The position numbers are program-made. From Girardia tigrina (lineage: Eukaryota), in NCBI GenBank assembly GCA_001938485.1, contig MQRK01179601.1:74831-138830 (forward strand): a DNA stretch of 64,000 bases, written 5' to 3'. Below are positions 57,467 through 60,342 of this stretch, piece after piece. The number at the start of each line of letters is the position of its first letter. The stretch's first letter is position 1.

Positions 57467-60342
57467 AAAGTAAATATTTTGTTTAATTTAACAATTTATT
57501 AATTAAAATTGTTCTGAATAAATAATATTAGACTCCGACATTTTTTTTCACTTTTGTGCTCTAAAAATAAAAAAAATCTTCTTTAATGTCAAATAAAAAA
57601 GTAATTTTTATTAATTGTGTTGATTTAACCACTTTTTATATATTTTCTCTAAAAGCGTTTTTATATTTGTAAAAATCCTTTTATTTTATATTGATATTCC
57701 TATTAATAGTATTTTTATTAAATAAAAACACTCAAATAATTCAAAAATAATAAAGAACGACATCTCTAATTAGAAAAAAAGTTTCAATCACATCTATAAA
57801 ACAATATTTGATAAAATCGACATACATTTCTTCTGTTCAACAATGTTTTTTATTAATTTCTTTCTGAAAGCATTCGCTTTTTGATAAATTGCCGATAAAC
57901 TTCAAATTTATTTTGTGAATGATATTCAATTTATTTATCTATTTATAATAAATTATAAAGATTTTTTAGAAATTTGACTAATATTAAATATTTAAAAATG
58001 TACCATTATGATCAAAAAAGTTTAAACTTAAACCCCGAAACATGAATCGATGTATTGCTTTTGCAAGGTGTCTTTAGGCAATATTTTTAAATATTACAAT
58101 TACTACTTAAGCACTCAAATAATATAAGGATAAAAATATATCAAAGAAGTCAAAAGTTTATGAAGAGGGATACCATTCTCATATAAAGGATAAAAAGGAT
58201 ACTCAATATCTACCCAAATTATTCTTAGCGTGACTTCATCAATTGTCTTCGTGCTTTTTTTTGAAAATGTCATATTTTAAGACTTAAATTTGTTAATTGT
58301 TTTCAAAACTGTTTTTATAATGGTTTTACTGACGAAATATGTGTTTTGGGGAATCAAAATGTTTTTGATTTTTAATGGGTCTTCTTTTTTTTCTTGACTG
58401 ATTTTGATTCCCGGCGGCGTAGGTAGGGCTTACATGCTGTCGCAAAAACCGGAAGAGTATCGGACTGGGAATCAATGAAGGATGTCAGATAGAAGAAGGG
58501 CACGAAGAGGAAAAATTTTAGAATTATAGATTCTTTGCTGGTGAAAAGAGAAAAATCTTTTTCACGTCAAAATGTCTCGAACCAAAATGTTGCGCACTGA
58601 TTGTTGTATCTCAGAGAAAGATGAGATATATTTATTTAATTTTATATTGAAGTTCAGTTTCTTCAAATTTTCGAACTGTGTTTTCATCAAATTATTCATT
58701 TCAAGTACAGCCTTATTCAAATCCGAAAAGAACTTCCAGACATCAATGTTACAATTTTTGGTCTCCTGGCTGACTTTATAAATTGGAGATTTTTTAACAT
58801 TAATAGCATTATTGAAACAGCTTTTGATATAAAAACTTTGTACATATTGGCAATGGTCCATGTCAAGTTGGGGTTGAGTATTTGTTTCTTGATTTCCTTT
58901 TAAAGCATTTTTAGAACCCTTGGAATCTGTATATTTTTGAACATTAGTTGTCGAACCTTTTTCCATACCAAAGACAAATGTTTTTTTAAAGTCTGAATAG
59001 ACTTTTTATTTTGCTGCTTTTTGGCTTCAACGATAGAGTTTAAAATAGCGGTATTGACTTTCTTTTCGTCGACATTGCTCATATATTTTGATTGAGCGAA
59101 CACTTTCTGTTTGACCTTTTTCGAATGATGAGCCACCTCGAAATTCTCTTTATATTCATTAAATACTTCTATAACTGTACAACTCGGAGACGAATTGATC
59201 AATCGATTCGAATTGTGAGATAGGACTTTGATTGGAGAACTTTCCAAAGATTCATGGAGCTTTAATTCTTCGATTTTTGAATTACCCATTTGCAATGACT
59301 CTATTTGCTTACACGCATGAACTCTATCGATTTTTACATAATCAGGATTAAAGAGACATTCATCTGTTTCATCAACACTATTAATTTTCATAATCTTATA
59401 TCGTTTTACTTTAAATGAAAATGCTGGATCTGAAACGGCTTCAGCAGATTTCCACTCGCAATAAATGTATGAAAATCCGCGAACTTTTTTTTCTGAGCCT
59501 TTCGATATTAAATCTAATACGTCAGAAATACTTACATTTCGCAATCCAAGCATCTTTTTAACAACTTTACTCTGATTTTCTAAATTTAATTCAAAATTTG
59601 AATCATCCTCACCATTTATTGAATTTTCGTCATTTGAATCTATTTTATTACCCACTTGAACAATTGCTAATTTTGGAATGAAATTCTTATTGCTAGTCTT
59701 TAACTCATCGATATGTAATTTCAATTTATCTCTTATTTTTTGAGACAAATCTTTGCCCGACAAAATTTTAGCTTCAGTTATATTTTGAGAACGTTTAAAT
59801 TCAATAAGTTTTGACAAAATTTTCTTTATTTTTTAACACAAAGGCTTTTACAGATTATTATTTTTTAATAGAACAACAAGACACTTTTTTTAAATCGATC
59901 ATAAAACATAAATTGCAACTCCAAAAAAAACTGCCAATTGATTGCGAGAAACAAAATTGTTAATTGCATAATTTGTGACAAAAAATTATTTCATTTAACA
60001 TATACTCACACTTTTTTGCAGTTGACAATATGTGACACACCAAACACACAACGCATGAAAACTCAAACACATTCACATATTTCTCTCCCTTTTTAACACA
60101 CACCCTAGCACACACACCACTCTGTCAGACCTAATTGGTCCATTCAAATCAAATGTCATTTACAATCACAAAACAAAAAAAATTTCAAAATAAAACATCC
60201 GAACTCAAATCTATTTGTTTTAATACATCAAAAATTTAATAACCATAGAAACACTCGTAAGTCTCAAATCGTTTAAATTGGCTTGTTAAATCATTTACAA
60301 AGAATTATGCCATTACAAAACGTTATGAACGTGATGGTTTTA

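What the first reader, a model, noticed from the sequence alone, without database searches (positions are those of the whole stretch)
58900..59817. In-frame fusion of MTHFD1 N-terminus to a CHD7/Kismet chromodomain
Seen: one 305-codon stop-free frame. Codons 13-62 match the start of C1-tetrahydrofolate synthase. They switch at ...KIDSN|DENS... into the first chromodomain, linker and start of chromodomain 2 of CHD6-9 (FSYIYCEW, LFNPDYVKIDRV), then into an unrecognised tail. No intron is visible and the MTHFD1 start position reads ATA. Known: these genes are unrelated and not normally fused. Inference: a chimera of two or more host mRNAs or exons formed by RT template switching or transposon capture, possibly at the GATTCAAAT (DSN) microhomology. 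Frame retention could be chance or selection.
Basis: partly seen in the sequence, partly recalled or inferred. Interest (0 to 1): 0.75.

Follow-up and report, generated by a model that had tools for sequence, protein, structure and literature searches.

The report
Mosaic reading frame with MTHFD1 fragment
A single long reading frame in a transposon-rich, AT-rich stretch of an animal genome starts with a copied piece of a folate-enzyme gene and continues into a chromodomain-like piece and an unknown tail; it is most likely a stray composite of gene fragments, an ordinary by-product of genome turnover.

Summary
The frame is real. Window 58903..59832 (- strand) has 310 stop-free codons, and 0 of 20 block-shuffled windows exceed 155.

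The MTHFD1 part is confirmed. Residues 15-63 align to residues 3-51 of solved human MTHFD1 (E 1.1e-6, 24 of 49 identical). Pfam THF_DHG_CYH covers only profile positions 1-42 of 115 and scores below its cut-off. The codon aligned with the initiator is ATA.

The CHD6-9/Kismet part is not confirmed:
- Pfam gives no Chromo hit at E<=10.
- 0 solved structures match residues 63-255 at E<=10.
- Two single-sequence models are unusable (pLDDT 36.6 and 34.4).
- The only support is a language-model lead to Chromo clusters (0.85, below the tool's 0.9 line).

There is no poly(A) tail, no target-site duplication beyond chance and no terminal repeats apart from (TA)n. The rest of MTHFD1 and an SNF2 ATPase were not found in the window. 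The neighbourhood holds mariner, BED-finger and retroelement remnants.

My reading is a composite of dispersed gene fragments, either a pseudogene or at most a proto-gene. How it formed is unresolved.

The parts
58903..59832 (-). Stop-free frame of 310 codons (305 from the mechanical TTG at 59817). The stop codon is at 58900..58902.
   Evidence: 0 stops in this frame against 12-36 in the other five. 0 of 20 shuffled windows exceed 155 codons.
59629..59775 (-). MTHFD1-derived piece (residues 15-63), matching the N-terminal ~50 residues of the dehydrogenase/cyclohydrolase domain.
   Evidence: PDB phmmer E 1.1e-6 to human MTHFD1, chain residues 3-51. Pfam PF00763 profile positions 1-42 of 115, below cut-off.
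59779..59781 (-). Codon 13, ATA, at the position that lines up with residue 1 of the solved MTHFD1 chains.
   Evidence: (codon read), together with the alignment offsets.
59782..59832 (-). 17 stop-free codons upstream of the ATA with no in-frame ATG. This may be former 5' untranslated sequence of the parent (inference).
59242..59574 (-). Chromodomain-like piece (residues 82-192), a lead only. It contains FSYIYCEW (59452..59475) and LFNPDYVKIDRV (59320..59355). The first in-frame ATG (codon 89, 59551..59553) lies at its start.
   Evidence: Atlas feature search: Chromo clusters at ranks 1, 2 and 19 (0.85-0.82). Against: no Pfam Chromo and 0 PDB hits.
58903..59241 (-). Unrecognised tail (residues 193-305) with higher third-position G+C than the first 200 codons.
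   Evidence: GC3 is 39 of 105 for codons 201-305 against 43 of 200 for codons 1-200, Fisher p 0.0043; sliding profile. Only weak sub-threshold Pfam Itfg2 (E 1.4e-3, 18.4 bits, cut-off 27). PDB shows noise only.
58565..59005 (-). Second stop-free frame of 147 codons on the same strand. It overlaps the end of the main frame in another reading frame and has the same codon-position composition as the tail. It may continue the same coding-derived tract after a frame change.
   Evidence: Only 1 of 20 shuffled windows has any run of 147 or more codons. No family or structure match.
59596..59640 (-). Two in-frame copies of GATTCAAAT (59632..59640 and 59596..59604). The first is the last three codons of the MTHFD1 homology.

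Best explanation
The frame is a composite of dispersed gene fragments lying in a transposon-rich, AT-rich, gene-poor stretch of an animal genome.

Its first piece is a copy of the 5' end of the C1-tetrahydrofolate synthase (MTHFD1) coding region. It includes the initiator position, now ATA, and some upstream sequence. It is joined in frame to a chromodomain-like piece and then to a compositionally different tail that seems to run on in another frame.

It cannot work as a folate enzyme. It has about 50 of the roughly 300 residues of the dehydrogenase/cyclohydrolase unit and none of the synthetase. With no in-frame ATG before codon 89 and four out-of-frame ATGs ahead of it, it is most likely untranslated. 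I read it as a young pseudogene-like relic or at best a proto-gene.

I think the pieces were brought together at the DNA level, by ectopic recombination or end joining of duplicated fragments at a transposon-dense locus. That mechanism has been reported to dominate fragment accumulation in Drosophila 'tinkering loci'.

Shown: the frame, its excess over chance, the MTHFD1 homology and its limits, the missing start codon, and the transposon context.
Inferred: the chromodomain identity, the third piece, the youth of the composite, and the DNA-level mechanism.
Rough sub-confidences: composite containing a true MTHFD1 fragment 0.85; second piece is chromodomain-derived 0.5; DNA-level rather than RNA-level origin 0.5.
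For: - Frame length is far beyond chance.
- The MTHFD1 alignment has E 1.1e-6, and all 5 PDB hits are MTHFD1.
- The Pfam match is limited to profile positions 1-42 of 115.
- Codon 13 is ATA, and the in-frame Met residues are 89, 143, 177, 246, 292 and 304.
- The 279 nt before codon 89 hold 0 in-frame and 4 out-of-frame ATGs.
- The sequence after ...GATTCAAAT is GACGAA, so there is no GT donor where homology ends.
- Six-frame translation gave 0 matches to three recalled MTHFD motifs. None of the 40 neighbouring ORF pieces scanned hit THF_DHG_CYH_C, FTHFS, SNF2 or Chromo.
- Third-position G+C shifts between the first 200 codons and the tail (p 0.0043). The adjacent 147-codon frame has the tail's composition.
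- The transposon context includes a mariner transposase remnant (Transposase_1 E 5.6e-28), a BED finger, and retroelement RNase H and integrase pieces.
- Retroposition hallmarks are absent.
- Preprint 10.64898/2026.08.09.743762 (sections 6, 7 and 13 read) reports that such loci collect fragments mainly by ectopic recombination and make composite proto-genes.
Against: - The pieces abut directly and in frame, with no recognisable non-coding spacer. DNA-level capture of exons would be expected to bring intron or flanking sequence with it.
- Apart from the pieces inside this frame, no further host-gene fragment turned up among the 20 ORF pieces scanned between 45 and 61 kb. The 'hub of fragments' picture is therefore not shown here.
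- A 310-codon frame surviving in 30% G+C DNA could also mean selection rather than youth.
- The chromodomain-like piece escapes Pfam although the MTHFD1 piece is about as similar to the human enzyme (49%) as a working orthologue might be. That fits awkwardly with a single recent origin from a canonical CHD gene.
Confidence: 0.5

Rival explanations
1. Chimeric retrocopy. A LINE or retroelement reverse transcriptase copied the 3' piece, jumped to a second mRNA (chromodomain gene) and then to the MTHFD1 mRNA, running to its 5' end. The joined cDNA was then inserted here.
For: - The pieces are fused directly with no spacer or visible intron.
- The 5'-most piece covers the initiator position plus at least 51 nt upstream. 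This is expected if the last template was copied to its 5' end.
- Double template jumps giving tripartite chimeras are documented (PMC2104539, abstract read).
- Retroelement remnants lie in the window.
Against: - There is no poly(A) tract (longest A run 8) and no AATAAA within 600 nt.
- The longest flank-to-flank direct repeat is 10 nt, matched or beaten in 177 of 200 shuffles.
- Whether the parents have introns at these positions could not be tested.
Confidence: 0.2
2. Capture inside a DNA transposon (Pack-TIR or Helitron type) or transduction by an LTR element. On this view the frame is cargo of a mobile element that picked up host exon fragments.
For: - The neighbourhood is transposon-rich.
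- Pack-TIRs carrying host fragments and forming chimeric transcripts are reported in animals (PMC8277862, abstract read).
- (TA)n tracts sit on both sides, at 57412..57470 and 60340..60400.
Against: - The only inverted repeats flanking the frame are the (TA)n tracts themselves.
- No terminal repeats or element ends were recognised.
- The 3 kb around the frame is single-copy within the window.
- (TA)n tracts are common throughout this window, and several are N-masked.
Confidence: 0.1
3. Two-part reading. The chromodomain likeness is spurious, and the frame is an MTHFD1 5' fragment fused to one unknown (possibly transposon-derived or lineage-specific) coding sequence of about 360 codons that later suffered a frame change.
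For: - No Pfam Chromo at E<=10 and 0 PDB hits for residues 63-255.
- Atlas scores are under 0.9. The tool states that a third of shuffled proteins get a first hit of 0.8 or more, and that all-ten family agreement also occurs in a third of shuffles.
- Both structure models have pLDDT below 37.
Against: - Two Atlas searches over different spans both bring up Chromo clusters.
- The third-position G+C shift inside the non-MTHFD part suggests more than one source.
Confidence: 0.3
4. This is the native first coding exon of the organism's own MTHFD1 gene, followed by an intron that happens to stay open.
For: The homology starts at the very N-terminus of the enzyme.
Against: - ATA sits at the initiator position and there is no in-frame ATG upstream.
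- There is no GT where homology ends.
- About 240 further stop-free codons in 30% G+C DNA is far beyond chance.
- No other MTHFD1 exon was recognised downstream on the - strand. That check used three recalled motifs, my reading of the ORFs and 20 scanned ORF pieces, so small exons could be missed.
Confidence: 0.03
5. Assembly artefact: two or more unrelated reads or contigs were joined by the assembler.
For: The region is AT-rich and repeat-rich, with N stretches nearby. The apparent frame change at the 3' end could be a homopolymer miscall.
Against: - A false join that keeps one frame open across all pieces is unlikely.
- There is no N and no repeat at the junction.
Confidence: 0.05

Closest known systems
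Composite proto-genes at transposon-rich 'tinkering loci' of Drosophila (preprint 10.64898/2026.08.09.743762; outline and sections 6, 7 and 13 read)
   Same: Duplicated fragments of unrelated host genes are juxtaposed in a transposon-dense region and can form composite reading frames. A mix of DNA and retro-transposon remnants surrounds them.
   Different: - Only the fragments inside this one frame were found here, with no cluster of further fragments within about 10 kb.
- Shared non-coding flanks with the parental exons, the signature used in that study, could not be tested.
- The organism here is not identified.
Bi- and tripartite chimeric retrogenes made by LINE reverse-transcriptase template switching (PMC2104539, abstract read; PMC5470649 and PMC4476161 seen in the listing only)
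   Same: Copies of different transcripts are fused directly to each other in one orientation, and three parts are possible.
   Different: - Those elements end in poly(A) and the fungal tripartite one is flanked by 14-bp direct repeats. Here there is no poly(A) and no flanking repeat beyond chance.
- Known examples mostly involve small RNAs, SINEs and LINEs, not two protein-coding pieces in one frame.
Pack-TIR and Helitron gene-fragment capture in animals (PMC8277862, abstract read; PMC6544945 and PMC3789558 seen in the listing only)
   Same: Host exon fragments are relocated and sometimes transcribed as chimeras.
   Different: No terminal inverted repeats or Helitron ends bound this tract. It is single-copy in the window.
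MTHFD1 / C1-tetrahydrofolate synthase, dehydrogenase-cyclohydrolase domain (PDB 1a4i, 6ecq, 1dia, 9isl, 9ise)
   Same: Residues 15-63 are homologous to the enzyme's residues 3-51, with 24 of 49 identical.
   Different: Everything after residue ~51 of the enzyme is missing, and the initiator is ATA.
Tandem chromodomains of CHD remodellers
   Same: Atlas feature searches point to chromodomain clusters.
   Different: No Pfam Chromo match, no match to any solved CHD structure, and no SNF2 ATPase or helicase domain in the frame or the neighbouring ORFs.

Membership tests
MTHFD1 / THF_DHG_CYH enzymes | Significant sequence homology to the N-terminal catalytic domain | tested here: met
   PDB phmmer E 1.1e-6, all 5 hits are MTHFD1. 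Pfam PF00763 E 1.9e-5.
MTHFD1 / THF_DHG_CYH enzymes | Complete catalytic domain scoring above the Pfam gathering cut-off | tested here: not met
   Only profile positions 1-42 of 115 are matched. Scores of 21.9 and 25.3 bits fall below 32.8.
MTHFD1 / THF_DHG_CYH enzymes | NAD(P)-binding domain and formyl-THF synthetase domain present | tested here: not met
   No such Pfam hit in the frame at E<=10 or in the 40 other ORF pieces scanned.
MTHFD1 / THF_DHG_CYH enzymes | Initiator codon at the conserved start | tested here: not met
   Codon 13 is ATA, and the first in-frame ATG is codon 89.
CHD6-9 / Kismet chromodomain region | Match to the Pfam Chromo model | tested here: not met
   No Chromo hit at E<=10 in the whole frame or in any of 5 sub-pieces.
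CHD6-9 / Kismet chromodomain region | Sequence similarity to a solved CHD or other chromodomain structure | tested here: not met
   0 PDB sequences at E<=10 for residues 63-255.
CHD6-9 / Kismet chromodomain region | Chromodomain-like features by language model | tested here: inconclusive
   Chromo clusters at ranks 1, 2 and 19 (0.85-0.82; 137 shared features) and at rank 8 (0.78). All are under the tool's 0.9 line.
CHD6-9 / Kismet chromodomain region | Chromodomain fold | tested here: inconclusive
   Single-sequence AlphaFold2 models have mean pLDDT 36.6 and 34.4, so no fold search was run on them.
CHD6-9 / Kismet chromodomain region | Subfamily-specific residues that separate CHD6-9 from other CHD and HP1-type chromodomains | not testable with these tools
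CHD6-9 / Kismet chromodomain region | SNF2 ATPase/helicase following the chromodomains | tested here: not met
   No SNF2_N or Helicase_C hit in the frame or in the neighbouring ORFs.
LINE-mediated chimeric retrocopy | 3' poly(A) tract | tested here: not met
   The longest A run in the 1.1 kb downstream is 8, and there is no AATAAA within 600 nt.
LINE-mediated chimeric retrocopy | Flanking target-site duplication | tested here: not met
   The longest shared direct repeat is 10 nt, and 177 of 200 shuffles reach 10 or more.
LINE-mediated chimeric retrocopy | Junctions and content correspond to spliced parental mRNAs | not testable with these tools
   The parental loci and transcripts are not available.
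Pack-TIR / Helitron capture | Terminal inverted repeats or Helitron ends bounding the captured tract | tested here: not met
   Only (TA)n-based inverted repeats were found.
Tinkering-locus composite | Transposon-dense surroundings | tested here: met
   Mariner, BED-finger, RNase H/integrase and gag-like knuckle pieces lie in the window.
Tinkering-locus composite | Several dispersed host-gene fragments clustered within about 10 kb | tested here: inconclusive
   Two or three pieces lie inside this frame. None was found among the 20 other ORF pieces scanned between 45 and 61 kb.
Tinkering-locus composite | Fragment shares non-coding flank with its parental exon | not testable with these tools
   The parental locus is not available.

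The most novel reading that the evidence does not exclude
The frame is a young, expressed composite gene. Its MTHFD1-derived 5' end supplies a promoter and leader, and translation from Met89 gives a ~217-residue protein that begins exactly at a fast-evolving chromodomain-like module. The long open frame is kept by selection, not explained by youth alone.
Probability: 0.1. Interest if true: 0.5.

Novelty: new member of a known kind. Interest (0 to 1): 0.3.

Why it matters
If the composite is only a relic, it is one more example of gene fragments being shuffled into transposon-rich DNA, and it mainly matters for annotation. An automatic pipeline could wrongly call it an MTHFD1 or a chromatin gene.

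If it proved to be transcribed and conserved, it would be a clean natural case of a new reading frame assembled from a metabolic-enzyme 5' end and a chromatin-reader module. That would be useful for studying how composite genes are born.

Tried and rejected
I scanned stop-free ORF pieces instead.
- One search had a frame slip, which one search corrected.
- The two single-sequence AlphaFold2 models (whole frame, and residues 70-200) were too poor to use (pLDDT 36.6 and 34.4). I ran no fold search (0 of 3 used).
- PDB searches of the tail and of the adjacent 147-codon frame gave only noise (best E 0.82 and 0.15).
- The Pfam sub-threshold hits are treated as noise or at most unexplained: Itfg2 (E 1.4e-3), IQ_SEC7_PH (E 8.7e-3) and C2_CAPS (E 0.027).
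- The bacterial promoter/terminator scan does not apply to this genome (9 sites against 14.3 expected).
- Rfam and tRNA scans of the whole window found nothing.
- By eye I looked at a candidate donor (GTAAGT after codon 94) and a downstream acceptor. Joining them would leave the frame, so I dropped the idea.
- The (TA)n tracts on both sides were considered as a split insertion target and rejected, because such tracts are frequent in the window.
- Literature: a search for chimeric / MTHFD1 / chromodomain / retrogene (at least 3 of 4 terms) listed 12 papers. By title none describes such a fusion, and only 2 of the 12 contain MTHFD1 at all.
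Full report
**The observation.** On the - strand, window 58903..59832 is free of stops for 310 codons. The mechanical ORF from TTG at 59817 has 305 codons, with its stop at 58900..58902. The five other frames of the same stretch carry 12 to 36 stops. In 20 copies of the window shuffled in 2-kb blocks, the longest stop-free run in any frame was 98 to 155 codons. The window averages about 26% G+C and this stretch about 30%. 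A frame of this length is therefore coding sequence or was so recently.

**The MTHFD1 piece.**
- A search of solved structures returned five distinct sequences at E<=10, all human MTHFD1 dehydrogenase/cyclohydrolase constructs. Residues 15-63 of the frame aligned to chain residues 3-51 (E 1.1e-6, 31.5 bits). I count 24 identities in the 49 printed columns.
- Pfam THF_DHG_CYH matches residues 19-62 to profile positions 1-42 of 115. E is 2.3e-4 for the whole frame and 1.9e-5 for the piece alone. Both scores are under the curated cut-off.
- The homology is thus real but covers only the first structural unit of the enzyme.
- The codon that lines up with chain position 1 is ATA. No in-frame ATG exists before codon 89, and four out-of-frame ATGs precede it.
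- Homology ends after ...KIDSN. The next bases are GACGAA, so there is no GT donor at that point.
- Six-frame translation of the whole window gave no match to three recalled MTHFD motifs. None of the 40 other stop-free ORF pieces I scanned hit the enzyme's other domains.
- This is not the organism's working MTHFD1 gene.

**The chromodomain claim.**
- The quoted motifs are there: FSYIYCEW at residues 115-122 and LFNPDYVKIDRV at 155-166. No homology tool supports their assignment.
- Pfam gives no Chromo hit at E<=10 for the whole frame or for any of five sub-pieces.
- A search of solved structures with residues 63-255 returned nothing at E<=10.
- Two single-sequence structure models were unusable (pLDDT 36.6 and 34.4), so I made no fold comparison.
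- The only positive signal comes from the ESM Atlas feature search. Over residues 64-200 the best score was 0.79, with a Chromo cluster at rank 8. Over residues 82-192, restricted to named clusters, ranks 1, 2 and 19 were Chromo clusters (0.85, 0.84, 0.82). The tool warns that scores under 0.9 are leads, and the shared-feature count (137) is under its 170 guide.
- I therefore rate 'chromodomain-derived' at about even odds.
- 'CHD6-9/Kismet' is untested. No CHD6-9 sequence came back from any search, and the protein databases that could supply one were closed.
- No SNF2 ATPase lies in or near the frame.

**The tail.**
- Residues 193-305 match nothing. The exception is a sub-threshold Pfam Itfg2 hit (E 1.4e-3, 18.4 bits against a cut-off of 27), which I leave unexplained.
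- Third-position G+C rises from 43 of 200 in the first 200 codons to 39 of 105 in codons 201-305 (Fisher p 0.0043). The sliding profile shows a gradual rise from about codon 160.
- A second stop-free frame of 147 codons (58565..59005) overlaps the end of the main frame in another reading frame. It has the same codon-position composition as the tail. Only one of the 20 shuffled windows contains any run that long.
- The coding-derived tract therefore probably extends to 58565, with one frame change.

**Context.**
- The frame is single-copy within the window.
- It lies among a mariner transposase remnant (43936..44781), a BED zinc finger with neighbouring broken ORF pieces (51289..52812), and a retroelement pol remnant with RNase H and integrase matches (34413..35724).
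- It also lies near gag-like zinc-knuckle ORFs and many (TA)n tracts, some N-masked.
- A DBF zinc-finger gene lies at the far end of the window.
- These features point to an animal genome. I did not try to name it.
- No Rfam family and no tRNA was found.

**Mechanism.**
- Retroposition hallmarks were sought and not found. There is no poly(A) tract, no AATAAA within 600 nt, and the longest direct repeat shared by the flanks (10 nt) is matched or beaten in 177 of 200 shuffles.
- Transposon termini were not found either.
A simple microhomology join would leave one copy. Its window count (7 against 3.4 expected, with 4 of 100 shuffles reaching 7) is weak.
- A 2026 preprint reports that transposon-rich 'tinkering loci' in Drosophila accumulate dispersed gene fragments mainly by ectopic recombination and produce composite proto-genes (10.64898/2026.08.09.743762, sections 6, 7 and 13).
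- Tripartite chimeras from double template switching by LINE reverse transcriptase are also documented (PMC2104539, abstract). So are Pack-TIR captures in animals (PMC8277862, abstract).
- On the evidence here I favour DNA-level juxtaposition (about 0.5), then template switching (0.2) and transposon capture (0.1). The direct in-frame abutment of the pieces is the main point against my choice.
- Supplementary tables of these papers, which were closed, might list comparable fusions.

**Function.** It cannot be a folate enzyme. Without a start codon before residue 89, with upstream out-of-frame ATGs and with a probable frame change at its 3' end, it is most likely not translated as a whole. The boldest reading not excluded is a young gene translated from Met89, which sits at the start of the chromodomain-like piece.

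**Verdict.** The frame and the MTHFD1 fragment are real. The CHD6-9 label and the proposed mechanism are unproven. This is a new example of a known kind of thing, a composite of gene fragments in repeat-rich DNA, and its interest is modest unless expression and conservation are shown.

Noticed in passing
window 34413..35724 (- strand): This is the virus-like stretch, an LTR-retroelement pol remnant. Pfam finds RT_RNaseH (E 1.2e-18), Integrase_H2C2 (E 1.4e-5) and rve (E 1.1e-6, just under cut-off) on separate stop-free pieces. The RNase H to integrase stretch is broken by at least two in-frame stops and at least one frame change (counted from the ORF list). An N stretch (36100..36669) lies just upstream. 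No reverse transcriptase, protease or LTRs were identified. Described only.
   Followed up: partly
window 12609..12983 (-) and 21975..22508 (+): Two ORFs carry sub-threshold zinc-knuckle (zf-CCHC) matches (E 2.6e-3 and 4.1e-3). The second also has a weak SCAN/gag-like hit. They are probably gag remnants of retroelements. The 12-14 kb block has a strong strand skew (GC skew -0.24, AT skew -0.20).
   Followed up: partly
window 43936..44781 (- strand): A mariner-type transposase remnant (Transposase_1 E 5.6e-28, HTH_48 E 3.3e-7). Its N-terminal part runs into an N stretch (44635..44768).
   Followed up: partly
window 51289..52812 (- strand): A BED zinc finger (E 2.9e-5, above cut-off) is followed by several short stop-free pieces in different frames. 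By recall these look like a hAT-family transposase, but no Pfam hit supports that for the three of those pieces scanned at E<=0.01, nor for the piece at 52106..52441 at E<=0.1.
   Followed up: partly
window 2870..5726 (+ strand): A DBF-type zinc finger (zf-DBF E 1.8e-15) is followed by long serine-rich stop-free pieces of 196, 131 and 295 codons. This is probably a Dbf4-like host gene, and it has a higher G+C at all codon positions than the finding's frame.
   Followed up: partly
window 57412..57470 and 60340..60400: (TA)n tracts lie about 2.9 kb apart on either side of the frame. Similar tracts, several N-masked, are scattered through the last 7 kb.
   Followed up: partly
window 60514..60692: Two copies of a 76-nt unit lie 103 nt apart at 78% identity, with a C-rich core (family D7; also seen by blastn). 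Unexplained.
   Followed up: no
window 54522..54791 (- strand): A 90-codon G+C-richer (46%) ORF has a Cys/His pattern that by recall resembles the C-terminal region of non-LTR retrotransposon ORF2 proteins. No Pfam hit.
   Followed up: no
window 63612..63953 (- strand): Short ORF pieces at the window edge look by recall like the end of an integrase core. No Pfam hit at E<=0.01.
   Followed up: no
window 56979..57240 (- strand): A G+C-richer island (about 47%) sits in AT-rich surroundings with a 67-codon ORF. No Pfam hit and no Rfam family. Unexplained.
   Followed up: partly
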